A model generated the notes under the pieces. That model was not told where the DNA came from and searched no databases. It saw nothing but the letters and a program-made list of their open reading frames with translations. Shown here in pieces: positions 406-23,935 of a DNA stretch of 64,000 bases. The stretch comes from Candidatus Nanopelagicales bacterium (GTDB lineage: Bacteria; Actinomycetota; Actinomycetes; S36-B12; UBA5976). Position numbers and translations under genes: made by a program. The stretch spans positions 1,103 to 65,102 of the forward strand of contig JBIJDU010000006.1 of assembly GCA_044343935.1 (NCBI GenBank), given 5' to 3'. Every line of letters starts with the position of its first letter. Position 1 is the stretch's first letter.

Positions 406-1617
406 CTAACCAGTTTCTTCCAGCTTCTCCCCCATTGCCCTAATAGTTTCATCAATCTTCTTAGCAATATGAGTGTCACGCTCATGAGTTGCATGCTGAT
501 AACGCATTGCCGCATTCACGGTGGAATGACCAAGCCTGGCTTGTAGTTCTGCCATGGAAGCGCCATGTTGGGCAGCAAGAGTTGCGGCAAAATGTCTTAG
601 ATCATGCCAGTGAATATGTTCTAGATTGTTTTCTTTTCGGGCTTGATCCCACCAACCACGTCGTTCTTCAATCGTGATTGGCTGATTATCTGCCACTTCA
701 AAGATAAACGCATCTGGATCTAATCTGGTGTGATTGATTAGATGCGCTTGCAGCATCTCAAGCAAACTAGTTGGCACTGCAATTAATCTATTGCTGGTTT
801 TTGTCTTTGGTGGCCCAACTATTGCGCCTTTGCCCGGCACACTTACTACCGCCTGGCTTACTCGAATGGTGGCACGAGAGATATCAACATCACGGCGTCT
901 TAAGCCAAACAATTCACCGGCGCGCAGCCCACAAGTGCCGGCGATCAGAACTGCTGCGCGATATTTATCTGGCACAGAATTTGCAAGTTTAATTAACTCA
1001 TCTAGCGTAATAATTGGGCGCTCTTTGGTCTTTGAGTTCATGTGTTTGATTGTTGCTGGTGCTTTCTCAATTAAGCCAGCATTAGCCGCTTCATTAAGAA
1101 TTGCTCTGAGTACGCGATAGGCGTATTGAATCGTGCTAAGTGATGCCACTTGATTCATCGCATCTACCCAGGCCCGAACTAGCTGCTGATCAAATTCAGA
1201 TAAATAATGATCAGATAGTTTTCTGCCATTTACTGGTAGTTGCAGCCAGCGATCAATAATTCGCTGATAGTCATATCTAGTGCGATCCCGAAGATGCAGC
1301 GCAGCTTTTAGCCAGTCGGTGGCAAATTCACTTAACGTGACTGATTCCCCGTTATTGGTTGCTGCTTCCGCCAGGAATTGTGAGGCAATGCCCTTTTGAT
1401 GCAGCACTTGATATTTTGCTTGCCAGAGCTCTTCTACTACTTTTTGGCACCACGCTTCAGCTGCACTATAAGACTCGAAGGTGTGCGGGGCGGCAATGCG
1501 AATGCCGTATTTGCGCACGGTGGCGCTGTATCTGGTTGATGGAAGTTGGCGAATACTTCCAATGTTGCGCCGTCTACCTGGTAGCACAACTAGCCTGGTG
1601 GGAAGCCATGTCCCCAA
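406..1617 (-). CDS. phage-type tyrosine recombinase/integrase (integrase 1)
   Basis: N-terminal GSIRQLPS..APHTF arm-binding-like region; catalytic set GLRAGE (R), KTK (K), HDLRH (HxxR), LGH and RYQH (Y) all intact; TTG start uncertain. Confidence 0.93.
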   Translation of the reverse strand: MGTWLPTRLVVLPGRRRNIGSIRQLPSTRYSATVRKYGIRIAAPHTFESYSAAEAWCQKVVEELWQAKYQVLHQKGIASQFLAEAATNNGESVTLSEFATDWLKAALHLRDRTRYDYQRIIDRWLQLPVNGRKLSDHYLSEFDQQLVRAWVDAMNQVASLSTIQYAYRVLRAILNEAANAGLIEKAPATIKHMNSKTKERPIITLDELIKLANSVPDKYRAAVLIAGTCGLRAGELFGLRRRDVDISRATIRVSQAVVSVPGKGAIVGPPKTKTSNRLIAVPTSLLEMLQAHLINHTRLDPDAFIFEVADNQPITIEERRGWWDQARKENNLEHIHWHDLRHFAATLAAQHGASMAELQARLGHSTVNAAMRYQHATHERDTHIAKKIDETIRAMGEKLEETG

Positions 1618-1684
1618 TTTAAGTTAGCCCTCAGACAATTCTGCCTCTATATCAGCAAGCGAGTTGATGAAAAGTTTGCATATC

Positions 1685-1700
1685 GGGGGGGGGGGGGGGG
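1685..1700. repeat. G16 homopolymer in the divergent intergenic region between integrase 1 and protease
   Basis: tatc-(g)16-atga read directly. Confidence 0.9.
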
Positions 1701-1760
1701 ATGAATTAGAAGGCCGTTGTTAATAGACAAAATTGGCTTTGCTCACATTATGAGCAGCGG

Positions 1761-3482
1761 GTGAACAGGTGTGTAATTCAGACAATTTGCCAGAGATCGA
1801 TTGCAGTTGTGGCTGCTAGGCAGATAGGGCGATACGCTCGCCAGGTGCGCCGAAGAGTAATAACTGCCCTGACCCTGCTGGTATTCACGTTTTCTGCCCT
1901 CCCCGCCACCGCTAATGCATTACATGGCACTTATCAAGTGGATTTTGTCCCCATTAGCTCACCAGCTGGCACGCCAGTATTAACTGAAGCTCAGGTGCGC
2001 AATTGGGTGAGCAAGATGAGCGCAATTTATGAGAGCGCAACTGGTGGCAAGATCAAATTAGAGTTTCGCACCTTATATCCAACTCAAACCACACAAGATC
2101 GCATCACTAGCCCAACTGGGTTAAAGGGTAAATTTCCTGCAGCTAATGTGCCAAAAGCAAATACGGCAGTTAAAGCCATTTTAGTTGGCGTGATTGCAAA
2201 AGATAGCAGTGTGGGATTTGCGGGAATAGCCACCTATAACGGCGATGAAATACTGCTTAACGGGTTAGCCAATGATGATCCAGTAAATATTTCCGTCTTA
2301 GTTCATGAGTTTGGTCATAACTTAGGGTTAGCACATGCTAACTCAGCTAAATGCACTAATCCAGCAGATCTAACTACCTGCACCTTAACTGAATATGGGG
2401 ATTACTCCGACATTATGGGTAAGTACTTTAAATCGTATGTCAGTTACGACGCTCGATTTAATGGTATTAGCTTAAACAAGTTAGGTGTATTAACTGAGAA
2501 TCAAGTCTTTTTAGCAAACACAACGGCAGAGTTAGAGTTAGTTCCACTATATGGCACGCAACCTGGTTTTAAAGTGATTTATCTGCCACTGTATAACCGA
2601 ATGGGTTATGCGGTGGAATATCGGCCAGCAACTGGCGTTGATTCTTCACTGAATCAAACTCAAATCTTTACCAGCAATAACTCCTATTACACCAACACTC
2701 CCTCTTATGGGCTACAAGTTAGATTCATCGGTGGGCAAGTAACCGCTACCGAAAAGTTTTTACCTGACACGGATAAAACCAGCAATACGATCTTCTTTAA
2801 TCGAAATCAAATCCGACAAGGAATGGATGCCGGCGATTCCATCACTTTACCCGATGGCTCAGTGGTGAGTTTTGTCTCTGGCAGCGGCGATAGCGCAGTT
2901 AAAGTGAAAATTGAACGAACAGCAGATACCACCGCACCAACAATTAACACTGCCGAATTTTCCTTGGTTGATGAGGGTAAACTGCCTAAATTCCAACTGG
3001 AATATGAATCCTTATCTGATGATCGCTATGTCACTAAATTAGAACTACTAATTAACTCAAATGTGGTAACCACAATTACAAATCCCGGAGTAAGTGGGGT
3101 AATTGAGCATCAGCTAACTAGCGCGAAGCCATTTAGTTATCAGCTAATTGCAACTGATGGGGCGGGCAACCAAAGTAAATCTGCCGTAACGCCAGCAGTG
3201 GTTGGTTGCAGTAATGAAAAGTGTTATGTCGGGGCAACCTGGGAAGTTGAAGCACCTAGTTGGAAACAGAAACTTGGCAATGCCCAACTGCAGGTGTTAG
3301 TAAATAAAGCTTGGAAGATAGTTACCAGTTCGGCGCCAGTAAGAAAAGATGGGCTTTGGACTTATGACCTGAAATACACCCCAACAAAAACTGGCAAATT
3401 CAAGTATCGAATCTATGTGCTACCAACCAAGAATTGGGCGGCTTATATTGATCGGCCATTTACCCAGCAGGTACCTGGCTAA
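1761..3482 (+). CDS. secreted zinc metalloprotease (metzincin, M11/gametolysin-like) with C-terminal Ig-like domains
   Basis: HEFGHNLGLAH = HExxHxxGxxH; EYGDYSDIMG Met-turn; signal-peptide-like ALPATANA; true start probably downstream of the GTG called. Confidence 0.8.
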   Translation: MNRCVIQTICQRSIAVVAARQIGRYARQVRRRVITALTLLVFTFSALPATANALHGTYQVDFVPISSPAGTPVLTEAQVRNWVSKMSAIYESATGGKIKLEFRTLYPTQTTQDRITSPTGLKGKFPAANVPKANTAVKAILVGVIAKDSSVGFAGIATYNGDEILLNGLANDDPVNISVLVHEFGHNLGLAHANSAKCTNPADLTTCTLTEYGDYSDIMGKYFKSYVSYDARFNGISLNKLGVLTENQVFLANTTAELELVPLYGTQPGFKVIYLPLYNRMGYAVEYRPATGVDSSLNQTQIFTSNNSYYTNTPSYGLQVRFIGGQVTATEKFLPDTDKTSNTIFFNRNQIRQGMDAGDSITLPDGSVVSFVSGSGDSAVKVKIERTADTTAPTINTAEFSLVDEGKLPKFQLEYESLSDDRYVTKLELLINSNVVTTITNPGVSGVIEHQLTSAKPFSYQLIATDGAGNQSKSAVTPAVVGCSNEKCYVGATWEVEAPSWKQKLGNAQLQVLVNKAWKIVTSSAPVRKDGLWTYDLKYTPTKTGKFKYRIYVLPTKNWAAYIDRPFTQQVPG

Positions 3483-3542: not shown

Positions 3543-4844
3543 ATGTCCTCCAGTAGTGAGCGGTTAGCAATCTCCCGGCTGAGCCATCGGTTTGGCTTTG
3601 GCCCAAAGCCCGGTGAATTTGCTCGGTTGATCAAAACTGGACAAAGCCAAGTTGCAACTCAATTACTTAACTCACCAGCGGTTGACATTTTCACGGCAAA
3701 TCAGATCCCGCCAAATGTTTATGATGCGGGTCGTCGACCCATGATGACGTCACCTGAATTAGGTAATTACTTAATTGATAAACGCACTCAATTTCAAAGT
3801 TTGCTGTTCTGGTGGCTAGACCGAATGGTGATTGCGGACCATGGCCTTATGGAGCGAATGACTTGGTTCTGGCATGGCCACTGGGCAACTTCCTACACCA
3901 AAGTAGATGATGCGCTGCCGATGTATCTGCAGAATCAAACCTTACGTCGACATGCGCTGGGAAATTTTGCGGCGATGTCAAAAGCGATGGTTAACGATGG
4001 CGCGCTGATTTTTTGGCTGGATGGACAACTCAATACCGCAAAAGCGCCCAATGAGAACCTTTCTCGCGAATTAATGGAGTTGTTTATTTTAGGCGTTAAT
4101 CGCTATTCGGAATCGGACGTTCGAGAAACCGCAAAGGCGTTAACTGGCTATAAGGTGGTTAAAAATACTGGGGTAGTGTTGTTTAACCCAAGACAGCACC
4201 ACAATGGGCCCATTAGTTTTCTGGGAACAACTGGAAATTACAACGCTGATTCGTTAAGTGATTATTTAGTAAGTCGAGCTGATTGTGCGAAATTTATTGC
4301 CGAGCGAATCTGGTATCGCTTCATTTCAAGTGACCATGAGCTAACGGGGATCAATTATCAACAAGCGTTTCAAGCAAGAGAAATCGCACCGCTAGTGCAA
4401 GCAATTGGTAACAGCGCTGCTATTGCTGATCCCCGCTACAGCATGGTGAAAAGTCCAGTTGATTGGTTAGTTTCAGTTTGTCGTGCCTTCAAAATTCTGC
4501 CAAGTCAGGTAAGAAATCCAACTCAGATCCGCATTGGCTTAACTACGTTAGGTCAACTGCCGCTCCAGCCGCCAAACGTTGGGGGTTGGCCAGCAGATCA
4601 AGCCTGGCTGTCCGCGGCATCAGCCCAGACCCGAATCTCGTTTGCTTCGATGCTTGCCGGTGAAGCAGATTTGTCTCCAATTGCTGATCTCAAAGCCACA
4701 GATCGAGTTGCTGCGATCGCTGATTGGCTTGGCGTATATCAATTTAGCGAGCGCACGTTAACTGCGTTTGAGTCAGCTCGAAAAGATCCAACCAGATTAG
4801 CAGTTCTGGCAATTTGTTCACCGGAATATCTGGTTGGGGCCTAA
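3543..4844 (+). CDS. DUF1800 family protein
   Basis: RLSHRFGFG, ERMTWFWHGHWATS, NENLSRELMELF.LG, PPNVGGW motifs; adjacent DUF1501 partner. Confidence 0.88.
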   Translation: MSSSSERLAISRLSHRFGFGPKPGEFARLIKTGQSQVATQLLNSPAVDIFTANQIPPNVYDAGRRPMMTSPELGNYLIDKRTQFQSLLFWWLDRMVIADHGLMERMTWFWHGHWATSYTKVDDALPMYLQNQTLRRHALGNFAAMSKAMVNDGALIFWLDGQLNTAKAPNENLSRELMELFILGVNRYSESDVRETAKALTGYKVVKNTGVVLFNPRQHHNGPISFLGTTGNYNADSLSDYLVSRADCAKFIAERIWYRFISSDHELTGINYQQAFQAREIAPLVQAIGNSAAIADPRYSMVKSPVDWLVSVCRAFKILPSQVRNPTQIRIGLTTLGQLPLQPPNVGGWPADQAWLSAASAQTRISFASMLAGEADLSPIADLKATDRVAAIADWLGVYQFSERTLTAFESARKDPTRLAVLAICSPEYLVGA

Positions 4845-4852
4845 GGAGAAAA

Positions 4853-6082
4853 ATGGATACCATCACGCGCCGAAAGTTTCTCCAAGTCTTTGGTGCTAGC
4901 GCGGCTGGCGCGGTTGCTACCACGCTGTCATACGACCAAATTGCACAAGCGGCAATTGATCGACCATTGCCCCTTGGCACCCCAATTTTGGTAGTGGTAA
5001 CCCTTTACGGTGGCAATGATGGCTTAAACACCGTTGTTCCAGTAACGGATCCGATCTATCAATCAATGCGCCCTGGCATTGCTTACACGCCAGATCAAGT
5101 GCTGCCACTTGCCGATAATCTCTACTTAAACGGTTCGATGGATGGCTTGCATTATTTGTGGCAACAAAACAAAGTTGCCATTGTGAGAGGAGTTGGTTAT
5201 CCAAATCCTGATCGATCCCATTTTGCTTCGATGGCCATTTGGCAATCGGCAAATTTAACTGCAGTTAAGTCTGGTTGGTTAGGCCGATGGGTAGAGACGC
5301 AGCCGAGAGATCCGCTGCTGGCAATTTCGTTAGGTTCCGTGCTGCCGCCACTGTTAGCTGGTTCTAAGCGTCCTGGTTCAGTATTGCCCTTAGGTGGTTT
5401 GAAAGTTCCAACCGGCCCATTAGGTGCTGAATGCCGCCGACTTTCCGCACCAAGTAAAAGTGATAACGAACTGCAAGCATTAGCAGCACAATCAATGCGA
5501 GATTTATTCACCGTTTCAGCTGATGTCACGCCAATTCTGAAAGGTCCGGCGCCAGCAGCGCCAGATCTACCAACTGCAATTGGTAGCAATGCTGGCGGTG
5601 ATACGAATTTGTCCCAACAACTAGATGTGGTAGCGAAGTTGATTGCTGCTGGTGCACCAACTCGAGTCTGGGTAACTTCGCTGGGTGGTTTTGACACTCA
5701 TGCTGATGGCAAGGATTCGCAATCTATTTTGTTGGATGTGGTTTCTGATGGAATTACTAGATTCATGTCACAGTTGAAATCAACTGAGCGAAGTAAAGAT
5801 GTGGTGGTGCTGGTTTACAGTGAGTTTGGCCGAAGGGTTAGAGCTAATGCTTCCGAAGGAACTGACCATGGCACCTCAGGCCCGGTATTTGTAATTGGTG
5901 ATCGGGTTAAAGGTGGTTTTTATGGCGATCAACCTTCATTGGCTAATCTCAAAAATGACGATCTGGCAGTTACGACAGATTTTAGAGACATTTATGCCAG
6001 CGTGTTAGAGCAGGTATTACAAACGCCAGCGGAGCGAATCCTAGGGAACTGGCGCAGTCGTATTCCGCTGTTTACTGCTTAG
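4853..6082 (+). CDS. DUF1501 family protein, Tat-exported
   Basis: start moved to ATG after AAGGAG; TRRKFL twin-arginine signal; LYGGNDGLNTVVP, GFDTH, SEFGRR, GTDHG motifs. Confidence 0.88.
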   Translation: MDTITRRKFLQVFGASAAGAVATTLSYDQIAQAAIDRPLPLGTPILVVVTLYGGNDGLNTVVPVTDPIYQSMRPGIAYTPDQVLPLADNLYLNGSMDGLHYLWQQNKVAIVRGVGYPNPDRSHFASMAIWQSANLTAVKSGWLGRWVETQPRDPLLAISLGSVLPPLLAGSKRPGSVLPLGGLKVPTGPLGAECRRLSAPSKSDNELQALAAQSMRDLFTVSADVTPILKGPAPAAPDLPTAIGSNAGGDTNLSQQLDVVAKLIAAGAPTRVWVTSLGGFDTHADGKDSQSILLDVVSDGITRFMSQLKSTERSKDVVVLVYSEFGRRVRANASEGTDHGTSGPVFVIGDRVKGGFYGDQPSLANLKNDDLAVTTDFRDIYASVLEQVLQTPAERILGNWRSRIPLFTA

Positions 6083-6084
6083 CG

Positions 6085-7839
6085 CTAGCGCCTCTTGTAA
6101 CCAGCAGGGCATTTTGGTTTTACCGCTTTCACCTTTTTAGTTTTTACCCCGTTAGTGCAGGTAATTGTTTTCGTTACTGGTGTCGGCACTACTACTGGTT
6201 TATTTCGCTCGGCTTCAAGGAGTCTAAATTCAGCTTCAGTCATTACCGAAAATGTGGCAGTATCGCCAATCACGCTGTGAGCAAAAACCACTAAGCCATC
6301 GGTCTTGGCATGTTGATTTGTTGACAGTGGCGCGGTGGCATATCGCTCCAGGTCGGTATTAAAGGAAACTGGCTTATCTTGCTCGGAGGCAATAATCTGA
6401 ACTGGCCCCTTAATTGATGCAATCGTAAAGTCAATCACGTATGCCAGCAGACCAGTGTTTGCACCTAAGGTATCAAAATTAGTATTAGTCCGATATTCAA
6501 TCATTAGCGCTTTGCTGCCACTAATGGGATGAATATAAAGCCGTTTACCACTCCCGGAGTTAATTGGGGCTAGGGTAATTTTTTCACTACTAATTGCAGT
6601 GAGCTGACAAACCACATCGGTATCAGGAAGCCAGCCTTGCACAAATCGATGAAAGCCCAGAAAAGTATTCGCGCTGCCAGAAGTGTTTCCCATTAAGTCA
6701 AAGGGCCCAGGAGATTTACCAGTATTTGGTCCAGATTGCAGATATAAGTCATACATCCCCAATAAGTGACCATACTCATGGGCGAATACCTTCCAACTTG
6801 GCACGCCAGGGGTATTGATGGTGCCAATTACGCCATTTACTAATTGGGAATTAACAATGGTGTCTTTGCCAGCAGTTAATTTGTGGCCAGGAAATGCGGA
6901 ACCATAATATCGCATGGAATCTGCAGTTGGGGCAAAAAAGTTAAGGCTGGCATAGCCTGATAGATCAGCTTGGGTGTTTGCAATTCGTAGTGCTTCATTA
7001 ATCAGGTTCAGATCTTTTCTGCCACCCTGAACATCAAATTTACCTTCACTATTAGGTGCAAAGCTCTTCTCGCTGCTATTTACTCTTACTACCTTTGGGT
7101 GAACATCAAATAAGACATTTAATTTATTGTAAGAATTAAACAAAAAGAACTCATTAGTTATCTTTGGCGATAACACATTGTTAACGCTTGTCATTAAATC
7201 GCCAGTAAACGGCGCATCGGGAAAATCCAGCACGATAATTAAGTTTTTAGTAGTGCCAGTAGCTGGCACTCGGTCGTTATTGCGCGGAAACCCTAATCGC
7301 AGCTCGCCTAATCGATAATCATCCATTTTGCAATCGGCCGGCAATCTGGCTGGAGTGTCAATCTTGAAGCCGAGACCGCCACCCTTGTAGTAACTAGATC
7401 CTGGTTGAATCTCAAACACTTTTTCATCAGTAGATAACTTAAGTCGCCAGGTAACGCCAGCTGCATTTCTAAAGTAATACCCAGCAGCATCTCGATTCAG
7501 ACTGCCAATCTGCCACGGCGGGGCTTGATCAGAGCTGCTTATTGAATCCAGTGCCACATAACAGCCGATTACCGAAATTGGCTCAGTTGCATAATCTGTG
7601 CTGTTTGGCTTGAGTAACGTAAATTCTTGACCAGTGTTTTGAAAAACTAATTTAGTGGTCTTTGGTGTTGGAAGAGTTGGTGAGACATCAACAATATTGG
7701 GGCAGGCGGCTAACCATTCTGGTCGCTTCAACCCATTGGCTTGTGCTGTTACTACCTGAAATAAGCTAAGTAACAGAAATGAAATTGAGAATAATGAAAT
7801 AAATCTGTTGCTGAATCTGACGGTATTGGCTCCGAGCAC
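6085..7839 (-). CDS. secreted M6-like (immune inhibitor A type) metalloprotease with basic Cx15C C-terminal tag
   Basis: signal peptide; HEYGHLLGMYDLY (HExxHxxGxxD); FDLMG Met-turn; tail TKTITCTNGVKTKKVKAVKPKCPAGYKRR. Confidence 0.82.
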   Translation of the reverse strand: MLGANTVRFSNRFISLFSISFLLLSLFQVVTAQANGLKRPEWLAACPNIVDVSPTLPTPKTTKLVFQNTGQEFTLLKPNSTDYATEPISVIGCYVALDSISSSDQAPPWQIGSLNRDAAGYYFRNAAGVTWRLKLSTDEKVFEIQPGSSYYKGGGLGFKIDTPARLPADCKMDDYRLGELRLGFPRNNDRVPATGTTKNLIIVLDFPDAPFTGDLMTSVNNVLSPKITNEFFLFNSYNKLNVLFDVHPKVVRVNSSEKSFAPNSEGKFDVQGGRKDLNLINEALRIANTQADLSGYASLNFFAPTADSMRYYGSAFPGHKLTAGKDTIVNSQLVNGVIGTINTPGVPSWKVFAHEYGHLLGMYDLYLQSGPNTGKSPGPFDLMGNTSGSANTFLGFHRFVQGWLPDTDVVCQLTAISSEKITLAPINSGSGKRLYIHPISGSKALMIEYRTNTNFDTLGANTGLLAYVIDFTIASIKGPVQIIASEQDKPVSFNTDLERYATAPLSTNQHAKTDGLVVFAHSVIGDTATFSVMTEAEFRLLEAERNKPVVVPTPVTKTITCTNGVKTKKVKAVKPKCPAGYKRR

Positions 7840-7898
7840 GGCCAGATTTTACAGGTCAAGCGACTTATTACCTGGGCATAGCGGTTCGGTAGCGAGTG

Positions 7899-15575: not shown

Positions 15576-15584
15576 TTGAACCTG

Positions 15585-15628: not shown

Positions 15629-15639
15629 GCAGTTAAGCA

Positions 15640-16553: not shown

Positions 16554-16594
16554 AAGCCAATTCTAGTTAGCCTTTCTTAGATAAGGTTTAGCCC

Positions 16595-17128
16595 ATGAGC
16601 GCAAAAGCAGAACTAAAACAGCAGATCCTGGCTAAAGCCGTAGTTCACGGCAAAGTCATTCTCTCCTCGGGTAAAGAAGCTGACTATTACGTAGATTTAC
16701 GTCGCGTTACCCTCGATGGGGTAGCCGCACCATTAGTTGGTGAAGTAATGCGAGAGTTAACTAAAGATTTAGGTTATGAAGCAGTTGGTGGTCTCACCCT
16801 TGGTGCCGATCCAGTAGCAACCGCAATGCTGCATGATGCGGCAAAACACGGTGAAGTACTAGATGCGTTTGTCGTGCGCAAAGCAGATAAAGCCCATGGC
16901 CTACAGCGCCGAATTGAAGGTGCTGAAGTTGAGGGTAGGAGAGTTCTTGCAGTTGAAGACACTTCCACTACAGGAGATAGTGTTTTAACTGCAGTCGAGC
17001 AACTTGAAAAAGCAGGGGCGATCGTGGTTGGTATTGCAGTAATAGTTGATCGCGGTGCTGGCAAAGTGCTAAAAGAAAAAGGCTATGAATTTAGAGCAGC
17101 TTATTCATTAGCAGATTTAGGGTTATAG
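16595..17128 (+). CDS. pyrE: orotate phosphoribosyltransferase
   Basis: LSSGKEADYYVDLR, RKADKAHG, VEDTSTTG PRPP-binding motif. Confidence 0.96.
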   Translation: MSAKAELKQQILAKAVVHGKVILSSGKEADYYVDLRRVTLDGVAAPLVGEVMRELTKDLGYEAVGGLTLGADPVATAMLHDAAKHGEVLDAFVVRKADKAHGLQRRIEGAEVEGRRVLAVEDTSTTGDSVLTAVEQLEKAGAIVVGIAVIVDRGAGKVLKEKGYEFRAAYSLADLGL

Positions 17129-17148
17129 CCCAAACAAGTAAAGTTAAC

Positions 17149-17931
17149 TCAGTCTTTTTGTCGTCGAGCAAACTCATGGCTGAAATATCGAACTAACGGC
17201 CGAGGTAATGTTCGAGAAACCGTGCTCATGGCTTTGTATTGTGCGCCTGGCACTGAAATCAATTGACCGCGTCTGGCATCAGCTAGTGATTCTTTCGCCA
17301 CTTGCTCTGGGGTTAACCAAAGCCAACTTGGCACATCACTATCGTTCATTTGACTGCGATCAAAGAACTTAGTTTTAGTAAAGCCAGGCGCAACTGCAGT
17401 TACTTGAACTTTAGTTCCCTTTAATTCAGCTGCAATTGCTTCCGTAAGCGATGTGACATAACTCTTCGCGGCAGCATATGTACCAGTTGGCAGCCAGGCG
17501 GCAATTGAAGAAATATTTAGCACTATGCCGCTGTTTTGCTGCTTCATCTTGGGCAGCACGGCATGGCTTAAAACTAATACTGCTTTAACTAATACTTCTA
17601 GTTGCTCGATTTCTTCAGCAAGTGAGTTTTCAGTAAACGGCAGGGAGGAGCCAAAGCCAGCGTTATTTACTAACACCTCAACCCCATCTAACTCTTTTAG
17701 GTGATTAGCAGTTTTCATGATCTCATCATGAATTGAAAGGTCAGCTAAGAAATAATCAACTTTAGTTTTATTACTCAACTCTGATTTTAAATTTTGGAGT
17801 TTTTCTTCACTTCGACCAATTAGTAATAACTCATATCCTTCATCAGCTAATTGCTGGGCATATGCCAGGCCAATGCCAGAAGTGGGCCCGGTGATAACTG
17901 CTAGTTTCACCGGGCCACTTTGGCATAACAT
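17149..17931 (-). CDS. short-chain dehydrogenase/reductase
   Basis: TGPTSGIG, NNAG, YAAAK motifs; real start probably a few codons downstream. Confidence 0.9.
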   Translation of the reverse strand: MLCQSGPVKLAVITGPTSGIGLAYAQQLADEGYELLLIGRSEEKLQNLKSELSNKTKVDYFLADLSIHDEIMKTANHLKELDGVEVLVNNAGFGSSLPFTENSLAEEIEQLEVLVKAVLVLSHAVLPKMKQQNSGIVLNISSIAAWLPTGTYAAAKSYVTSLTEAIAAELKGTKVQVTAVAPGFTKTKFFDRSQMNDSDVPSWLWLTPEQVAKESLADARRGQLISVPGAQYKAMSTVSRTLPRPLVRYFSHEFARRQKD

Positions 17932-17933: not shown

Positions 17934-19334
17934 CTAGTTGCGCATCTGGAAGGTGGGGTTTGCGAACAGTTTTCCGTTCACTTTCAAGGAATCAATTAAT
18001 AACTCTGGGTTATCGCCTTTAAGTAGTAGTTTTAATTTACCTGGCTTTCGACTAAACCAAGTAATTGTTTGATCTCGAGTTAACGTCAACTGGCTCATTA
18101 TCCGCTGATTTAACAAGATAGTTAGGGTTGAGTTATTTGAAGCTAGTAGTTTTAAACTGCTTGAGCCAGCCGCAATAGGTCTGATTAATTTTGCTTCTCC
18201 TATCACCTGTATTACCTTGCCACCAGCTGCCCGGTTAATTCGGAGCTGTTTCATAGTTGGCGCTGATGTAAGGGGTGTATCTGAATTAACTATCTCAATA
18301 GCGCTGGGCTCTGGTTTAATTATTTCTGGTTCAACATTAATCTCTGGTTTCACTTCTGGTGTAATCACCACAATGGGTAGCTGTGGTGAGATCACTATTG
18401 GTTCCACCTTAGGCTGCGATTCCACAATTGGTTGAGTTATCGGTGTTGATTCACTTGGATTAGTTTCAACTACTTCTTCAACTGGCTCTGGTGATGTAGT
18501 CGAATCAATGACTGGTTCGACTTCTGATTCAGTTGGTTTCTCAACTATTTCATCAGCAGTTATCGTCGGATCAGTTGTTGATTCCGAATCTGCCGTTGCA
18601 GTTTCAGTTGTTGGTTCTGAGTCACTTGATTGAGGTTGTGATTGGGAAGGGTCAGTTAAATCGGTTGTTGGATCTAACTGAGTTTCTGGCTCTGACTCAC
18701 TTTCAGTTACAACCACTTCTTGCTTTTCATCTATTACTTCTGGCTCAACGGTTGATTCCGGTGCCACGTCCGGCTCCGCCTCAACAATTGGTTCTGGTTC
18801 AACAATAGGTTCCGGCTCAATCACCTCTTCTGGTACTGGTGGCGTTAATGTAAAATCTGCCAAAGCTAAATTAACTAGCGGAATTGTTGTTGCAATACCG
18901 CCAATAGTGACTACCCCAGTTCGTGGATACATCAGCGTAAAACCACTTAATACCGCACCGTTTCTGAAACTAACGCCAGTAATTAAGTAGTTGCCATCAG
19001 CTAAGGTCAAACTGGGTGATTCAATAGTGAAGTTGGTATCAGTTGAATTAGGCGTAATTGAAACTAGAAACTGACCCGAATTACACAAAAAGCCATCCCA
19101 ACTACTTTCTGGACAGATCCAAACTCGTGTAATATCTGAATAAGTTGAGCCATTGATGCGATTAATCACTAAGTTGAACTTAAGCCGATTATCGGTATAG
19201 AAACTTGAAGTGTCAGTAGAGATACTTACTAACTCAACTAACGGATCAGGCCAATCCTGTGCCTGACTTATGCTGGTTTGAGTTGTGAACCAGATGCCGC
19301 TTAACAGAAATACTGCAAGCGCTCTTATTTTCAT
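17934..19334 (-). CDS. secreted protein with long acidic Glu/Pro/Thr-rich linker and basic C-terminal domain
   Basis: signal peptide ending SQA; EPEPIVEPEPIVE-type low-complexity middle; RBS AAGGAG. Confidence 0.75.
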   Translation of the reverse strand: MKIRALAVFLLSGIWFTTQTSISQAQDWPDPLVELVSISTDTSSFYTDNRLKFNLVINRINGSTYSDITRVWICPESSWDGFLCNSGQFLVSITPNSTDTNFTIESPSLTLADGNYLITGVSFRNGAVLSGFTLMYPRTGVVTIGGIATTIPLVNLALADFTLTPPVPEEVIEPEPIVEPEPIVEAEPDVAPESTVEPEVIDEKQEVVVTESESEPETQLDPTTDLTDPSQSQPQSSDSEPTTETATADSESTTDPTITADEIVEKPTESEVEPVIDSTTSPEPVEEVVETNPSESTPITQPIVESQPKVEPIVISPQLPIVVITPEVKPEINVEPEIIKPEPSAIEIVNSDTPLTSAPTMKQLRINRAAGGKVIQVIGEAKLIRPIAAGSSSLKLLASNNSTLTILLNQRIMSQLTLTRDQTITWFSRKPGKLKLLLKGDNPELLIDSLKVNGKLFANPTFQMRN

Positions 19335-19381
19335 AGCTGCTCCTTTGCTAGGAGCGGAAGATTTCCGTGCTATTTCTATTA

Positions 19382-19415
19382 CCTCCCAGGTTGGGTAATC
19401 ACCTAACCTGGGAGG
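19382..19415. promoter_or_regulatory. 15-bp stem-loop in divergent intergenic region
   Basis: cctcccaggttgggt-aatc-acctaacctgggagg (one non-Watson-Crick pair). Confidence 0.55.
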
Positions 19416-19448
19416 GCAGCAGTATGAAATCTGCTCTAAACTTCAAAT

Positions 19449-19811
19449 ATGAGCAGTGTGATTTATGACGGTGATTGTGCATTTTGTTCTTCTACTGCCA
19501 GATTTGGCAAATCGAAAATCGCACCAAAGCTTGAGTTTCTTGCCTATCAACAAATAGATTTGGGTAAGTATGGCTTAACTGCAGCTGAATGTGAAAAGTC
19601 ATTACAGTTTGTATCAGATAACAATGAGATCTTTGTAGGCGCAAAAGCGGTCGCACGGATTTTAATCAGCGCTGGCTTTCCCTACCTAATTCTTGGCCGA
19701 ATCATGAATCTACCAATCCTAAATAAGTTAGCCCAACTGGGTTACCACTTAGTTGCGAAGAATCGTCATCGGTTACCTGGCGGCACACCAACTTGCAAGA
19801 TGGACAACTAA
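19449..19811 (+). CDS. DCC1-like thiol-disulfide oxidoreductase (DUF393)
   Basis: YDGDCAFC N-terminal CxxC; NRHRLPGGTPTC. Confidence 0.88.
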   Translation: MSSVIYDGDCAFCSSTARFGKSKIAPKLEFLAYQQIDLGKYGLTAAECEKSLQFVSDNNEIFVGAKAVARILISAGFPYLILGRIMNLPILNKLAQLGYHLVAKNRHRLPGGTPTCKMDN

Positions 19812-19826
19812 AACGATTTAGAAATG

Positions 19827-19858
19827 ACTAAGGGCCCGGATTTCTCCGGGCCCTTAGT
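19827..19858. terminator. intrinsic terminator hairpin between convergent genes
   Basis: actaagggcccgga-tttc-tccgggcccttagt, perfect 14-bp stem followed by a T-run on +. Confidence 0.85.
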
Positions 19859-19885
19859 TTTAAAGCTTAGGAATTGTTCCCAAAC

Positions 19886-22453
19886 TTAGTTGTTACCGGT
19901 GACGATAACCTGATTTGAGAACAAACCAGTTCCTTCTTGCTTCACACGGATAACCTTGTCCTTCTTGAATCCACGGATGGATCCGTTGAAGTCACCAGGG
20001 GCTGCAACTTCTAGAGTCTTAGCCTTTTCTACCCATGTGGTTGCACCAACAGACTTAACGTAGATGATGATGTCACCTTCGTTATTAACTGCGGTACCAG
20101 AAAGAATCACACGGCCATTGCGCTTCTTGATTTCAAGAGTTGGCGCATCAAATGGTGCGACGTATGCAGAACCAGTTACAGATCCGGTTGGATCAGCAAC
20201 TGAACCGCTACCTGCTGCGAAACGTTTTACGGTTGAACCGGCAGCGTCGTTGTATTCAGCGTAGTTAGCAACATTGAGCGAGACGTTTGCTAGGAAGTTA
20301 CCGTCTTCACCCTGAGTTCCAACAACATCCACGAAGCAAGTTCCATTTGAGCTGGTTACGCAAGTGGTTGTTGAGCCACCGAATGCGAATCGACCAGCAG
20401 CAGATGTTGCTGCACGTGAGAAGTCAACTGTTACGCCAGTTAGAGCATTGCCCCAACCATCTTTAACAGTTGCGGTGATCTTGCCAGGAACCTGATCAGA
20501 TCCCCAGGTAGCAGATCCACCGGTGATAACTAGTGAGCGTGCATTTGCTGCAGTTGCAGTTACAGTGAATGTCTTAGCCACAGAGTGACCTAGTTCAGTT
20601 GTAACAGTTACTGTTGCAGTTCCAGCTGTGGTGCCATAGGCATATACAGCTGTGTTGCTTGCAGCGGTCAAAGTAGTTGTAGCAAGGGTGTCAGTTGAGT
20701 TTGCAGCAACTAGCTTTGCTCCACCAGTTGCGGTGTAAGTCAACAAAACACCGGTCTTAGCAGCAAGACCAACTGCAGTTGAAGCCAATGCTGGAGTTAC
20801 TGAAACGTGGTTAGCCACAGTTACAGTCTCGGTGTATAGCGCTTCATCAGTTGTTGCACCAAGAGTTACATCTAGTGAGTATGCAGCCTGAGTGGTGTAT
20901 TCCACAGTCAATGAAGCATTCTCTAGGTCAGTAGCTAGGTCACCTGGAGCGAAAACGTTCCAGTTCAAGGTGTCATTAGCTGCACCAGCCTTAGCATCTA
21001 CGTGAGTAACGGTTGCATTACCGTTTGCATCAGTGATTGCCTGAGTAGTTGCAGCGTTGCTACCAGTTGAAACTGCTTGAACAACGTAGTTGCTGTACTT
21101 GGTTCCGAATTCGTCAGCCACAGTAACTGTGTATGAACGAGTTGAACCAGCTAGAGCTAGAACTGTGGTCAAGTTTGTTGCTTCAACGTTTGGTGACCAA
21201 GTGACAGTTGCATCCTGAACTGAAGCTGCGTTGTAAGTAACAGTGTGGCTAACACCATCATTTGCATCCTGATAAACGGTTACAACATAACCCTGACCAG
21301 CAGTTGCTGCGGTTGCGGTTACTGTGACCGTTGCTGTTCCAGCAGATCCAATGACTGCGTGATAAGTACCGGCTGTTACTCCAGTTGGAGCGCCACCGCC
21401 ACCAGCAGCAATTACAACTCTAACTGCAGTTCCAGCAGTACCGGAAATGGTGAATGGAATTGATAGGTTTGTTAGTGAAGAGACAACTGGTGCATCTTGA
21501 ATGTCACCATCATCAACAGCATCACTTACTGGAGCAGCTGGGAATGCGTATGCAGCATCTGCAGTTGTTGTAACTCCTGTTTCGCCAGCTTGAACTGCAA
21601 TACCAGTTGTGTAACCCTCAGTAACTGAGGTGTAGGTAGCGGTTGCAGCTGTTGCAAGTGGATTCAGTGATCCACCGAAGTTTGCACTAATTGTTGAAGT
21701 GCTAACTGCAGCAGCCTGAACAGCGAAGTCATACTTATTTGAAGTTAGTGCACTTGCAGCAGTAAGTGTGCTAGAGCGAGGTGAAGCACCTGCTGAGCCG
21801 TCCAAAGTGATGTTGCCAGATCCTGCTGTTTGGGTCATTCCCAAGATAACAGTTTCAGCGCCAGTCAACTTAGTTACTCGGCCACCAGCATCTGTCAAAG
21901 CAACTGAGTAAGTTGCATTCACAGCCACTAGTGAAGCACCCGAATTACCAAGTGCATCTGCTTTAGCGGTTACGGTTAGAGCGGTTGGTGCACCACCAAC
22001 AGTGATCGAACCAGTTGTTGTGGTTTCGCCAGCGTCAATTACGCCGTTGCCATTTGGATCCCAATAGGCCAAATAGCCATAGTCTCCAGCGACATTGAAG
22101 TAATCACCAGCAGCACCAACGGTTACGTTTGTTGAGGCAGCAGCAGCAAGACCACCTGCACCAGCAGCTGGGTTAGCTGCAGTGAACTGATCGCCAACCT
22201 CAAATGTGGTGGCATCGGCTGTTGCTGGAACTGATGTAATACGAATGACCATGTCGCCATCTGCGTCCTGGGCAATCGCTGCAGTGTTCTTGACTGCAAT
22301 TACAGCATCAGTTGTAGCAGTTGCACGAACCACATCTGTTGGGTTTGTGACTGTTACAGCTGAAGCGCTTGCTGGTGCAATCACAGCAAATGGTGCAATG
22401 ACCAATGATGCAATAACGCCAAGCGACAAGCGCTTAGTTGTCTTATTAGACAT
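19886..22453 (-). CDS. Ala/Thr/Val-rich secreted surface protein, S-layer candidate (855 aa)
   Basis: signal peptide ending APASA; beta-rich Ig-like segments; short basic C-terminal domain; AAAGGA RBS; monocistronic with strong terminator. Confidence 0.7.
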   Translation of the reverse strand: MSNKTTKRLSLGVIASLVIAPFAVIAPASASAVTVTNPTDVVRATATTDAVIAVKNTAAIAQDADGDMVIRITSVPATADATTFEVGDQFTAANPAAGAGGLAAAASTNVTVGAAGDYFNVAGDYGYLAYWDPNGNGVIDAGETTTTGSITVGGAPTALTVTAKADALGNSGASLVAVNATYSVALTDAGGRVTKLTGAETVILGMTQTAGSGNITLDGSAGASPRSSTLTAASALTSNKYDFAVQAAAVSTSTISANFGGSLNPLATAATATYTSVTEGYTTGIAVQAGETGVTTTADAAYAFPAAPVSDAVDDGDIQDAPVVSSLTNLSIPFTISGTAGTAVRVVIAAGGGGAPTGVTAGTYHAVIGSAGTATVTVTATAATAGQGYVVTVYQDANDGVSHTVTYNAASVQDATVTWSPNVEATNLTTVLALAGSTRSYTVTVADEFGTKYSNYVVQAVSTGSNAATTQAITDANGNATVTHVDAKAGAANDTLNWNVFAPGDLATDLENASLTVEYTTQAAYSLDVTLGATTDEALYTETVTVANHVSVTPALASTAVGLAAKTGVLLTYTATGGAKLVAANSTDTLATTTLTAASNTAVYAYGTTAGTATVTVTTELGHSVAKTFTVTATAANARSLVITGGSATWGSDQVPGKITATVKDGWGNALTGVTVDFSRAATSAAGRFAFGGSTTTCVTSSNGTCFVDVVGTQGEDGNFLANVSLNVANYAEYNDAAGSTVKRFAAGSGSVADPTGSVTGSAYVAPFDAPTLEIKKRNGRVILSGTAVNNEGDIIIYVKSVGATTWVEKAKTLEVAAPGDFNGSIRGFKKDKVIRVKQEGTGLFSNQVIVTGNN

Positions 22454-22454
22454 T

Positions 22455-22610
22455 TAATTCCTTTCAAAGAATTTCCATTCCAAGGCTTCCCTTTGGGAAT
22501 CCGGCGGATCCGTCCGTCTAGTTGGCTAAGCCAGCTAGTGAAATCCCGATTGATCGGTCCTGAAATGAGTCCAGGAACCACGGGTGTGGTTCCCAACTGA
22601 TAGTCAATGA
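22455..22610 (-). promoter_or_regulatory. multi-hairpin putative 5' leader of the S-layer-like gene
   Basis: stems at 22574-22593 (ggaaccac/gtggttcc), 22518-22538 and 22487-22499. Confidence 0.45.
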
Positions 22611-22765
22611 GTTGGAATAAGTTGTTTGAAACTTGCAATAAGTGGGGAATTGTGAGTAAATAGCTGAGAACAATGGGTTTTTTGAATAAGCGTTGGAATA
22701 AAAAGCACCTAATTACGCCAGATTTGGTTGGATTACGCTTTATTGCACTCTAAATCAGTTGCTGT

Positions 22766-23935
22766 TTAACTTAACTTCTTTAGACTTTCATCAATACTGG
22801 CACTTACTACTCGATCTCGATTCAAGGTGGCGTGCTGATATCGCATTGCAGCTCCAACGGTGGCATGACCAAGTCGGGCTTGCAGTTCAGCAAGTGAGGC
22901 ACCATGTTGAGCAGCCAACGTGGCCGCAAGGTGTCTTAGGTCATGAAAATGCAGATCCGCTAAACCAGCTTCTCTTCGAGCTTCATCCCACCATTTTCTG
23001 CGGTCTTCCACCGTGACTGGTTTATCTTCATCAGTAGTGAAAACCAGGGAATTAGTGCCTGGATCGGTGAAGTGCGTGAGATGAACTTCCATTTTTGGTT
23101 GCAGATAGTCCGGATAAGAGATGGTTCGGACTGAAGATTTTGTTTTTGGTGGCCCAATGATGGTGCCCTTACCTGGCACAGAAACGATTGCTTGCTCTAC
23201 TGTGATAGTTCTGGCAGCAAGATCAATATCTTTTCGGCGTAGGCCAAATATTTCACCAGAGCGTAAACCACAGATACCGGCGATTAAAATTGCTAGGGAA
23301 AACTGAAGTGGAACTAGTTCTGCCAGCACTACTAATTGACTCACATCAATTATTGGTCGGTTGGTTGTAATTTGTTGTTTCTTCTTTATTGGCGCAGGTG
23401 CGCGATGGATGATTCCTTGTGATGCAGCTTCATTCAAGATAGCTCTAAGCACCCGATAGGAGTAATCCGCAGTTGAAGGTGATGCAACTTTTGTAACTTG
23501 GGCTAACCAAGATCTAATTAGTACATTATCAATTTTGGTTATTGGGTAAGAAGAGAAGGTTCTGCCATCAACTTTTATCTGCAGCCACTTATCCAAGATT
23601 CGCTGATAGTCATAGCGGGTGCGATCGCGCAGCGAGGTATTGTTTTTTAACCAAGTTGTGCCAAACGAATCTAACGTGATGGCTGAGCCGGTAGCCGCAG
23701 CAATATTTTGCTGCGACATAAACAGTGGTTCAGAAATTTTTAGGTGAGCATTCGGCGTGTGCTTCATTCGCCAAAGTTTTTTCGCTACTTGATAGCACCA
23801 TTCATCTGCAGCGCCATAATCATCAAACGTGTGTGGTGCTGGGATGCGATACCCATACTTATTAACGGAGGCGGAATACCTCCCACTAGGCAGCTGTCTT
23901 ATGCTGCCGATAGCACGGCGAGACGATCTAGCCAA
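22766..23935 (-). CDS. phage-type tyrosine recombinase/integrase (integrase 2), paralog of integrase 1
   Basis: GSIRQLPSGRY; GLRSGE, KTK, HDLRH, LGH, RYQH catalytic residues intact; LRDRTRYDYQRI and YRVLRAILNEAA shared with integrase 1. Confidence 0.93.
   Translation of the reverse strand: MARSSRRAIGSIRQLPSGRYSASVNKYGYRIPAPHTFDDYGAADEWCYQVAKKLWRMKHTPNAHLKISEPLFMSQQNIAAATGSAITLDSFGTTWLKNNTSLRDRTRYDYQRILDKWLQIKVDGRTFSSYPITKIDNVLIRSWLAQVTKVASPSTADYSYRVLRAILNEAASQGIIHRAPAPIKKKQQITTNRPIIDVSQLVVLAELVPLQFSLAILIAGICGLRSGEIFGLRRKDIDLAARTITVEQAIVSVPGKGTIIGPPKTKSSVRTISYPDYLQPKMEVHLTHFTDPGTNSLVFTTDEDKPVTVEDRRKWWDEARREAGLADLHFHDLRHLAATLAAQHGASLAELQARLGHATVGAAMRYQHATLNRDRVVSASIDESLKKLS

What the first reader, a model, noticed from the sequence alone, without database searches (positions are those of the whole stretch)
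406..23935. Two intact paralogous phage-type integrases with no phage or ICE cargo, bracketing 21 kb of surface plus core genes
Seen: both minus-strand integrases keep R-K-HxxR-H-Y and an N-terminal arm-binding-like region, and roughly half their residues match by eye. Neither has an excisionase, repressor, phage, relaxase or tRNA next to it. The interval holds core genes (purA, fbaA, pyrE), so it is unlikely to excise as one element. Each integrase sits next to surface-protein genes. Inference: either minimal island remnants or domesticated recombinases that swap or invert surface-gene cassettes.
Basis: partly seen in the sequence, partly recalled or inferred. Interest (0 to 1): 0.62.

Follow-up and report, generated by a model that had tools for sequence, protein, structure and literature searches.

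The report
Paired integrases bordering a surface-protein island
Two related, intact integrase genes in a tiny freshwater actinobacterium (Nanopelagicales) mark the borders of its fast-changing cell-surface gene island. One is preceded by the genome's only long run of G/C, a possible random on/off switch, but what DNA the enzymes cut and join is still unknown.

Summary
int1 (406-1617, minus) and int2 (22766-23935, minus) are full-length tyrosine integrases, 54% identical, with all catalytic residues. No tRNA, excisionase, phage or conjugation gene lies nearby.

The "21 kb bracket" is not a unit. In relatives the two genes lie 4-6 kb apart around surface-protein genes only. Here a rearrangement, best explained by one roughly 32-kb inversion, moved int1 and half of the array to the far side of purA-fbaA-pyrE.

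The integrases do have cargo:
- int2 is followed by an S-layer-like gene.
- int1 faces a 13-kb array of seven secreted-protein genes on the adjoining contig, including two more S-layer-like paralogs.

Both genes belong to a clade seen only in this genus and in metagenome contigs close to it. The next relatives are at most 37% identical, and L5-type phage integrases about 30%. Both are under purifying selection (dN/dS 0.06-0.18). They are nonetheless lost or replaced together with the island between strains whose flanks are 98% identical.

I found no att repeats above chance, and read mapping was unavailable.

One new item: a length-variable poly-C tract (9 to 16 C) sits at a fixed distance upstream of int1 in 6 of 7 orthologs. 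It is the only such tract in the 1.38-Mb genome.

My best reading is working island integrases of a replaceable surface-gene island, at about 50% confidence.

The parts
1..375 (+). 3' end of a 519-aa secreted protein. It is the last gene of a 13-kb co-oriented array of seven secreted or surface genes that converges on int1. The array starts on the adjoining contig C16.
   Evidence: Contig C16's right end overlaps C26's left end by 127 nt.
406..1617 (-). int1, an L5-like heterobivalent-type tyrosine integrase. The probable true start is near 1575.
   Evidence: Orthologs are 72-76% identical in G006, L052 and L057. dN/dS is 0.06-0.18.
1632..1652 (.). Conserved CAGA-N-TCTG-type palindrome in the int1 leader or promoter region. 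It overlaps a 13-mer (TCTGCCTCTATAT) whose only other copy in the genome lies upstream of S-layer-like paralog A on C16.
   Evidence: Alignment of int1 upstream regions. Genome-wide count of the 11-mer core is 2. The pair is near chance expectation and is only a lead.
1685..1700 (.). G16 (C16 on the int1 strand) homopolymer between the divergent int1 and peptidase genes. Candidate slipped-strand contingency tract.
   Evidence: It is the only G/C run of 9 or more in 1.38 Mb. The same position upstream of int1 orthologs carries C9, C11, C13, C14 and at least C6, ending 122-129 nt before the IGSIR codon.
1761..3482 (+). Secreted HExxH metallopeptidase (weak M10/M12B matches), divergent from int1. 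This is the conserved partner of int1.
   Evidence: The ortholog is 58% identical next to int1 in L057. 3' remnants remain in G004 and G006.
3543..6082 (+). DUF1800 and DUF1501 pair, conserved next to purA in relatives.
6085..11978 (-). Two surface-protein genes (584 aa and 1359 aa) inserted between DUF1501 and purA. They are absent in genus member G004.
   Evidence: In G004, positions 230/255 join window 12133 to 6073. Weak fn3, cadherin-like and lectin matches.
12121..17931 (-). Core block: purA, DUF3151, fbaA, a small secreted protein, a SpoU methyltransferase, pyrE and an SDR. Its orientation relative to dcd differs between relatives.
   Evidence: Synteny is shown.
17934..19811 (.). A 466-aa secreted repeat protein and a DCC1-like oxidoreductase. 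This variable filler sits where the relative L052 carries int1 plus a response regulator.
19822..19862 (.). Terminator hairpin of the S-layer-like gene. It is also present after paralog A on C16.
19886..22453 (-). S-layer-like surface protein C (855 aa), directly downstream of int2 and co-oriented with it. The signal peptide and the last ~80 aa are conserved and the middle is hypervariable.
   Evidence: Paralogs A (909 aa) and B (1023 aa) are on C16.
22454..22765 (-). Promoter and 5' leader of the S-layer-like gene. It is shared with paralogs A and B, so it is a family feature and not an att site.
   Evidence: alignment of three upstream regions. Conserved in G002, G003 and L052.
22766..23935 (-). 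int2, the integrase next to dcd.
   Evidence: The order dcd, int, then a large surface gene recurs in 10 or more independent contigs. dN/dS is 0.07-0.12.
23936..24157 (.). int2 upstream region with a ~150-nt block conserved among int2 orthologs. The island edge on the dcd side lies near 24125.
   Evidence: alignment. The G004 deletion junction is at about 24125-24128.
24158..24739 (-). dcd (dCTP deaminase), the conserved core gene that anchors the island.

Best explanation
int1 and int2 are working tyrosine integrases that belong to the main cell-surface flexible genomic island of one genus of freshwater Nanopelagicales (acI-type actinobacteria).

What is shown:
- The island sits next to dcd.
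- Its basic layout in relatives is: peptidase, int1 pointing inward, a co-oriented array of S-layer-like and other secreted-protein genes, int2 pointing inward, then dcd.
- In this genome int1, its peptidase partner and most of the array lie on the far side of the purA-fbaA-pyrE block, so the two integrases appear to bracket core genes.

What is inferred:
- One inversion of about 32 kb converts the layout seen in relatives into this one.
- The integrases carry out site-specific integration, excision or exchange of island modules. This would allow whole surface-gene sets, integrases included, to be swapped between strains under phage or grazer pressure.
- Homologous recombination in the conserved gene ends adds further mosaicism.
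- int1 expression is probably stochastic, set by a length-variable poly-C tract about 40 nt upstream of its putative -35 box.
For: Intact and selected:
- The two proteins are 54% identical and full length, with invariant catalytic residues.
- dN/dS is 0.07-0.12 for int2 and 0.06-0.18 for int1. This includes pairs where synonymous sites are not saturated: dS 0.18 and 0.41.

Clade:
- A tight clade of about 30 clusters is split from all other integrases by a drop from 47% to 37% identity and by a branch with 100% SH-aLRT support.
- int1 is sister to all dcd-adjacent integrases.

Recurrent local architecture:
- dcd, integrase, about 300 nt, then a large co-oriented surface gene in G002, G003, L052, L056, GCA_041447075.1, L141 and L142-L145.
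- Peptidase divergent from int1, with surface genes converging on int1, in the window, L057, L147 and G002.

Variable cargo behind int2: five surface genes, glycosyltransferases, a response regulator plus a 1544-aa fn3 protein, or a sulfotransferase-like gene.

The pair lies close together in relatives: 6.4 kb in G002 (convergent) and 3.8 kb in L052 (direct).

Strain-level replacement:
- G006 and L052 share 98.4% identity over 6.6 kb of flank. Their islands differ entirely, starting at one sharp junction. int2 is present in only one of them, and the int1 alleles are only 88.8% identical.
- G004 lost both integrases by a deletion. It fuses the last ~95 nt of the peptidase gene to a point about 30 nt after the dcd stop.

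Assemblies break around these genes. Most contigs carrying them are only 1.3-3 kb, and dcd lies near a contig end in many MAGs of the family.

Inversion model: inverting the segment from paralog A through DCC1 in the joined C16+C26 sequence reproduces the gene order of G002, G004, G006 and L057.

Mosaic integrase genes:
- A 770-nt patch of int2 is 99-100% identical to L056, while its flanks are 83-90% identical.
- The int1 of L052 carries an int2-type C-terminal patch.

Poly-C tract.
Against: - I found no direct or inverted repeat above chance at any island edge, so no att site is identified.
- There is no tRNA target, excisionase or other recombination directionality factor.
- The observed deletion (G004) and the gene mosaics look like illegitimate or homologous recombination, not integrase products.
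- Other genera of the family also have a variable stretch beside dcd without these integrases. Variability there therefore does not need them.
- The inversion is inferred from gene order in MAG contigs of different species and has no identified breakpoint repeats.
- L052 shows a fourth arrangement that a single inversion does not explain.
Confidence: 0.5

Rival explanations
1. The two are domesticated recombinases that invert or shuffle surface-gene segments. They would act on sites in or near the conserved 5' or 3' ends of the S-layer-like paralogs, or in the 3' ends of the int genes themselves. The outcome would be antigenic variation, and the large inversion would be one of their products.
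For: - Three S-layer-like paralogs share the promoter, leader and signal peptide and the C-terminal ~80 aa plus terminator. Paralog C is inverted relative to A and B.
- The orientation of the int1-core block relative to dcd differs between relatives.
- In G002 int1 and int2 are convergent around the array.
- Recombination breakpoints cluster about 25-30 codons before the int stop codons.
- Both genes are long retained under purifying selection in a 1.38-Mb genome.
Against: - These are ~390-aa integrases with an arm-binding-type N-terminal domain, not ~200-aa Fim/Tsr-type invertases. NCBIfam invertase models score only 16-20 bits against cut-offs of 221-222.
- No inverted repeat pair above chance lies at the inferred inversion ends.
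- The paralog repeats are only 77-82% identical over 200-290 nt, and all three copies have their own promoter, so no silent-cassette logic is visible.
- The integrases are lost or replaced with the island.
Confidence: 0.15
2. The integrases are passengers with no present role in island turnover. All variation arises by homologous and illegitimate recombination plus diversifying selection. In this view the integrase genes persist only because they are linked to selected surface genes.
For: - No att sites, Xis or target tRNA were found.
- The G004 deletion ends inside the peptidase gene.
- Mosaic patches and gene conversion typical of homologous recombination are present.
- Other genera have a variable dcd-side region without these integrases.
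Against: - dN/dS of 0.06-0.18 with every catalytic residue invariant across about 30 clusters argues for selection on the protein itself. Those clusters have diverged to 46% identity.
- Linkage alone would not keep 1.2-kb ORFs intact for that long in a streamlined genome.
- The positionally conserved, length-variable poly-C tract upstream of int1 suggests regulated expression.
Confidence: 0.2
3. The two are fixed capture platforms, integron-like. Each integrase stays in place and inserts incoming promoter-bearing surface-gene cassettes at a site beside itself, so that arrays grow and turn over downstream.
For: - The arrays of co-oriented secreted-protein genes directly downstream of int2 vary in length and content.
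- The integrase keeps the same position beside dcd in lineages whose neighbouring 373-aa protein has diverged to 49%.
- Sequence conservation ends sharply at or just before the int stop codon.
Against: - No repeated attC-like element lies between array genes. The spacers hold only terminator hairpins or are 16-53 nt long.
- int2 is co-oriented with the array, not divergent from it as in integrons.
- The integron-integrase model scores 31-47 bits against a cut-off of 265.
- int2 is absent in one of two conspecific strains.
Confidence: 0.1

Closest known systems
Mycobacteriophage L5 integrase and related actinobacterial phage and AICE tyrosine integrases (heterobivalent, with arm-type and core-type DNA binding)
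   Same: - Same length class (370-400 aa).
- 29-30% identity over 94-96% of the protein.
- phrog_1 integrase match at E = 2e-51 to 2e-59.
- N-terminal Integrase_N_phage domain in clade members.
- All catalytic residues present.
   Different: - No phage or conjugative genes, no tRNA target, no Xis and no recognisable attL/attR.
- The clade appears only in chromosomal contigs of one genus and close metagenome relatives and is absent from IMG/VR.
- Two paralogs sit at opposite borders of one island.
Flexible or hypervariable genomic islands of streamlined plankton (Nanopelagicales GIs; Pelagibacter and Actinomarina HVRs; Prochlorococcus island elements)
   Same: - A positionally conserved, strain-variable island.
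- It encodes surface proteins, glycosyltransferases and a defence module.
- It breaks metagenome assemblies.
- Planktophila work reports genomic islands and six large inversions (PMC12817590).
   Different: - The HVRs in the papers I could search are bounded by tRNAs (bioRxiv 10.64898/2026.04.03.716425), and the main text of the 2025 Nanopelagicales paper never mentions an integrase.
- Here the borders are two paralogous integrases and a dcd gene, with no tRNA.
S-layer and surface-antigen variation by inversion between paralogs with conserved ends (Campylobacter fetus sap; Lactobacillus acidophilus slpA/slpB). Named from my own knowledge.
   Same: Several S-layer-like paralogs have conserved 5' and 3' ends and variable middles. 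One is inverted relative to the others, and the DNA between them has a different orientation in relatives.
   Different: - All three copies carry their own promoter and leader.
- The repeats are only about 80% identical.
- The inverted segment is about 32 kb and includes essential genes.
- No population-level switching is shown.
Promoter-region homopolymer contingency loci (Bordetella fim C-tracts, Neisseria and Haemophilus promoter repeats). Named from my own knowledge.
   Same: A long G/C homopolymer lies in a divergent promoter region. It is unique in the genome, fixed in position and different in length in every ortholog.
   Different: - It lies upstream of a recombinase gene, roughly -75 to -90 from the inferred start site, not between the -35 and -10 boxes.
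- It occurs in an actinobacterium.
- Length variation within one population has not been measured.

Membership tests
Tyrosine recombinase / phage integrase superfamily (PF00589) | Catalytic domain with R, K, HxxR, H and the Y nucleophile | tested here: met
   PF00589 scores 81 and 73 bits against a cut-off of 27. R225, K264, H331, R334, H357 and Y366 are invariant in 15 sequences.
Heterobivalent (lambda/L5-type) integrases | N-terminal arm-type DNA-binding domain plus a SAM-like core-binding domain ahead of the catalytic domain | tested here: inconclusive
   Clade members carry PF26003 Integrase_N_phage in precomputed annotations. My own Pfam scan gave only sub-threshold Phage_int_SAM_5 matches of 17 bits. 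Full-length alignment to L5 Int at 29% identity. No structure was predicted.
Integrative element (prophage, ICE or genomic island) integrase | attL and attR direct repeats at the element ends, usually in a tRNA or other conserved target | tested here: not met
   No tRNA. No repeat above chance at any junction. Only one 13-mer pair, which is near chance expectation.
Integrative element (prophage, ICE or genomic island) integrase | Presence/absence polymorphism of integrase plus cargo between close relatives | tested here: met
   G006 and L052 have 98.4% identical flanks but different islands, and int2 is present only in L052. G004 lacks both integrases.
Integrative element (prophage, ICE or genomic island) integrase | Excised circular form or precise empty site | not testable with these tools
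The only empty state seen (G004) is an imprecise deletion.
Tyrosine-type DNA invertases (FimB/FimE and Tsr-like) | Short (~200 aa) recombinase flanked by an invertible segment with inverted repeats | tested here: not met
   The proteins are 389-403 aa. NCBIfam invertase models score 16-20 bits against cut-offs of 221-222. No flanking inverted repeats were found.
Integron integrase | IntI-specific insertion, a divergent attI/Pc arrangement and attC-bounded cassettes | tested here: not met
   TIGR02249 scores 31-47 bits against a cut-off of 265. The array is co-oriented with int2. No attC-like repeats lie in the spacers.
XerC/XerD chromosome dimer resolvases | Match to Xer equivalog models and universal single-copy presence | tested here: not met
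   XerC and XerD models score 36-59 bits against cut-offs of about 330. The genes are absent from most genomes of the genus and family.
Simple-sequence contingency locus (for the G16 tract) | Homopolymer at a conserved site whose length differs between otherwise homologous copies | tested here: met
   C16, C9, C11, C13, C14 and at least C6 at 122-129 nt from the IGSIR codon in 6 of 7 orthologs. The tract is unique in the genome.
Simple-sequence contingency locus (for the G16 tract) | Length heterogeneity within a population, and an effect on expression | not testable with these tools

The most novel reading that the evidence does not exclude
The paired integrases are a dedicated system for exchanging whole sets of cell-surface genes, found in one genus. 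Two paralogous L5-like integrases sit at opposite borders of the surface-gene array. They act on sites that are not classical tRNA-type att repeats, possibly within the last ~30 codons of their own genes, where recombination breakpoints cluster. They exchange or invert whole blocks of S-layer-like and secreted-protein genes. One integrase is gated by a slipped-strand poly-C switch, so only a random fraction of cells is competent to rearrange. If so, this would be a programmed mechanism behind the flexible islands of streamlined freshwater bacterioplankton.
Probability: 0.12. Interest if true: 0.8.

Novelty: new variant of a known kind. Interest (0 to 1): 0.5.

Why it matters
Nanopelagicales are among the most abundant freshwater bacteria. 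Their coexistence in many strains is attributed to hypervariable surface-gene islands, yet how those islands turn over is unknown.

Here the main surface island of one genus carries two conserved, selected integrases at its borders, with no phage, plasmid or tRNA context. One of them sits behind what looks like a stochastic switch. That gives a concrete, testable candidate for the turnover machinery.

If the integrases prove inactive on island DNA, the case still shows that strain-level replacement, large inversions and gene conversion all concentrate at one locus. It also explains why this region is missing or fragmented in most MAGs.

Tried and rejected
- Direct and inverted repeats. I ran the repeat finder on 1-25000 and an 11-mer comparison of all eight junction regions, which found nothing. 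I also looked for maximal exact matches of each integrase flank against 45 kb of the joined contigs; only 11- to 13-mers at chance level turned up. Boundary-to-boundary searches in L052 and G006 gave one 9-mer and one 8-mer, both at chance level.
- The 41-nt hairpin shared by window 19822-19862 and C16 first looked like an inversion site. It is the common terminator of S-layer-like paralogs.
- The conserved 312-nt spacer after int2 looked like a possible att region. It is the promoter and leader shared by all three S-layer-like genes.
- Rfam search of 1-30000: nothing credible.
- Consensus promoter and terminator scans: uninformative.
- The metagenome-contig scan with the clade alignment chose generic motifs and returned only integrases of 47% identity or less over partial matches (mostly 27-37%).
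- A DNA-level genus search with window 16595-19900 found only G001. The SDR and fbaA protein searches showed that this block is missing from most MAGs of the genus, so genus-level synteny stayed thin.
I therefore could not see where the peptidase, DUF1800 and DUF1501 lie in that 199-kb contig.
- The 52-aa ORF upstream of int2 in L052 was checked as a possible excisionase. It is a truncated ABC-ATPase N-terminus.
- I considered a poly-G sequencing artefact for the G16 tract. I rejected it because independent assemblies carry the tract at the same position.


Full report
**1. What is there**

The window is C26:1103-65102 of a 1.38-Mb, 37-contig, 94%-complete MAG. Related contigs are titled Candidatus Nanopelagicales, and the gene content (DUF3151, class II aldolase, purA) fits an actinobacterium.

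They are 403 and 389 aa, 54% identical over 383 residues, and both match PF00589. R, K, HxxR, H and Y are invariant across a 15-member alignment. They are the only integrases of this type in the assembly. The only other tyrosine recombinase found is a distant Xer-like gene on C25.

Between them lie:
- a secreted HExxH peptidase;
- DUF1800 and DUF1501;
- two surface proteins (584 and 1359 aa);
- purA, DUF3151, fbaA, a SpoU methyltransferase, pyrE and an SDR;
- a 466-aa secreted protein and a DCC1-like protein;
- an 855-aa Ala/Thr-rich surface protein.

dcd, a 373-aa secreted protein and purD follow int2. There is no tRNA within 35 kb, no Rfam match and no excisionase-like ORF.

**2. The window cuts the picture in half**

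The contigs of this assembly overlap by exactly 127 nt. The right end of C16 joins the left end of C26. On the joined sequence, the 3' side of int1 faces a 13-kb array of seven co-oriented secreted-protein genes.

The first two genes of that array (909 and 1023 aa) are paralogs of the 855-aa gene next to int2. All three share the promoter, leader and signal-peptide region, the last ~80 codons and the same terminator hairpin, with unrelated middles. Further left lie another giant surface protein and an AbiEii/AbiEi pair. So neither integrase is without cargo.

**3. Relatives**

The arrangement dcd, integrase, about 300 nt, then a large co-oriented surface gene recurs in many places:
- genus members G002 and G003;
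- a 199-kb ENA contig, L052;
- a strain with 96%-identical int2, L056;
- GCA_041447075.1;
- more distant contigs whose integrases are only 46-52% identical to int2.

The cargo behind int2 varies. It is five surface genes in one case, glycosyltransferases in another, a response regulator plus a 1544-aa fn3 protein in a third, and a sulfotransferase-like gene in a fourth.

int1 orthologs lie divergent from the same peptidase and converge on surface genes (L057, L147, G002).

Importantly, int1 and int2 lie 6.4 kb apart and convergent in G002, and 3.8 kb apart in direct orientation in L052. In both cases only surface or regulatory genes lie between them.

G004 has neither integrase. Its DUF1800 is followed by the last ~95 nt of the peptidase gene, fused about 30 nt after the dcd stop. 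This is a deletion scar. G006 keeps a shorter peptidase remnant.

Inverting the joined sequence from paralog A through the DCC1-like gene gives this order: purA(+), DUF1501(-), DUF1800(-), peptidase(-), int1(+), array(-), int2(-), dcd(-). That is the order seen in G002, G004, G006 and L057. The 21-kb bracket is therefore best read as the by-product of one roughly 32-kb inversion. It is an inference from gene order, and I found no breakpoint repeats. L052 has yet another arrangement, so the locus is a rearrangement hot spot.

**4. Evolution of the integrases**

The large protein search recovered three tiers:
- about 18 int2-type clusters at 76-96% identity;
- about 10 clusters at 52-54%, mostly int1-type;
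- one type at 47%.

All further integrases are at most 37% identical.

In the tree the whole clade has 100% SH-aLRT support. int1 is sister to all dcd-adjacent integrases, a grouping supported at 86%, so the duplication is old. dN/dS is 0.07-0.12 for int2 and 0.06-0.18 for int1. This includes pairs that are not saturated at synonymous sites.

Both the integrase clade and the S-layer-like family were found only in this genus among 41 family genomes. The best phage match is 34% identical (an unannotated 'Bacteriophage sp.' record from human faeces). L5-type mycobacteriophage integrases are 29-30% identical. No member of the clade is in IMG/VR. The best solved relative is the Tn1549 integrase.

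**5. The integrases are not fixed**

G006 and L052 are 98.4% identical over 6.6 kb of the dcd-side flank. To the left of one sharp junction, at the end of a truncated ABC-ATPase gene, they carry unrelated islands:
- G006 has int1(+) and a 767-aa gene;
- L052 has int1(-), a response regulator, a 775-aa gene and int2.

Their int1 alleles are only 88.8% identical.

The integrase genes are also mosaic. A 770-nt patch of int2 is 99-100% identical between the window and L056. Its flanks are 83-90% identical and the downstream leader 68-81%. The int1 of L052 has an int2-type patch about 27 codons before its stop. Breakpoints thus cluster just after the RYQHAT motif.

**6. Search for recombination sites**

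No direct or inverted repeat above chance links any pair of island edges.

The one lead is the 13-mer TCTGCCTCTATAT. It occurs in the int1 leader, where it overlaps a palindrome conserved among int1 orthologs, and upstream of paralog A. This is the only such pair in the genome. The expected number of chance 13-mer matches over all my searches is about 0.2 to 1, so it remains only a lead.

Spacers within the array hold only terminators or are very short.

**7. The poly-G tract**

G16 at 1685-1700 is the only G/C run of 9 or more in the whole assembly, and there is no A/T run of 12 or more. On the int1 strand it is a poly-C tract that ends 122 nt before the conserved IGSIR codon.

Independent assemblies carry C9 (G006), C11 (L057), C13 (L147) and C14 (L152). 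One contig starts inside the tract (L148, at least C6). All of these tracts end 124-129 nt from that codon. Only L052 lacks the tract.

Downstream of the tract, the orthologs share a weak -35-like hexamer, a 17-18-nt spacer and a TAnnnT box, read from the alignments. This would place the tract at roughly -75 to -90 of a putative int1 promoter. It also lies close to a predicted divergent promoter for the peptidase. Stochastic control of int1, the peptidase or both is an inference and needs read-level and reporter evidence.

**8. Verdict**

The idea that the interval is not one element is right. "No cargo" and "remnants" are not.

The most likely account is working integrases belonging to a replaceable surface-gene island, split here by an inversion (about 0.5). 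The rivals are:
- passengers with no role in turnover (0.2);
- invertase or shuffling enzymes (0.15);
- an integron-like capture platform (0.1).

The kind of thing, a flexible island with integrases, is known. Four features differ from the textbook cases:
- the integrases come as a pair of paralogs;
- there is no tRNA, att or Xis context;
- the clade is restricted to one genus;
- int1 carries the homopolymer tract upstream.

Noticed in passing
window 1685-1700: G16 homopolymer between int1 and the peptidase gene. It is the only long G/C run in the 1.38-Mb genome. Its position is conserved and its length varies (C9 to C16) upstream of int1 orthologs.
   Followed up: yes
G000 contig C16:21044-22382 (about 15 kb left of the window start): An AbiEii nucleotidyltransferase toxin (PF08843, E = 1e-28) with an upstream DUF6088/AbiEi-like partner. 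This is a type IV toxin-antitoxin or abortive-infection pair inside the surface-protein island.
   Followed up: partly
G000 contigs, all ends: Nearly all contig ends overlap another contig end by exactly 127 nt (the assembler's k-mer). Contig order around the window can therefore be recovered: C17, then C16, then C26.
   Followed up: partly
window 22855-23623: A 770-nt patch of int2 is 99-100% identical to ENA contig L056, while the surrounding DNA is 83-90% identical. This indicates recent recombination confined to the integrase gene.
   Followed up: yes
L052:14718-15900 (int1 ortholog, identical to P0023): A ~27-nt patch near the 3' end (encoding KAITAEIN) matches the int2 of the same contig rather than other int1 genes. 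This indicates gene conversion between the paralogs, which lie 3.8 kb apart.
   Followed up: yes
L052:9283-9441, and the same sequence in G006:C57: A 52-aa ORF that is the N-terminal fragment of an ABC-transporter ATPase, cut just before the Walker A motif. Its end coincides exactly with the strain-level island boundary.
   Followed up: partly
window 6085-11978: The 584-aa and 1359-aa surface-protein genes form a separate ~6-kb insertion between DUF1501 and purA. It is absent in genus member G004, so this is a second variable spot with no integrase of its own.
   Followed up: partly
window 15585-15628: A perfect 20-nt inverted repeat with a 4-nt loop between the 173-aa secreted-protein gene and the SpoU methyltransferase gene. 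It is probably a bidirectional terminator.
   Followed up: no
window 22454-22620 and C16 upstream of both paralogs: The three S-layer-like genes share a ~170-nt leader: TTGACT-type box, GGGATTTCACTAGCTGG, then CAACTAGACGGACGGATCCGCCGGAA. It could fold into a stable 5' UTR structure.
   Followed up: no
G001:C18:5905-6929: In genus member G001, fbaA is matched as two separate pieces with a gap in query coverage. This suggests a frameshift or an assembly error in that MAG.
   Followed up: no
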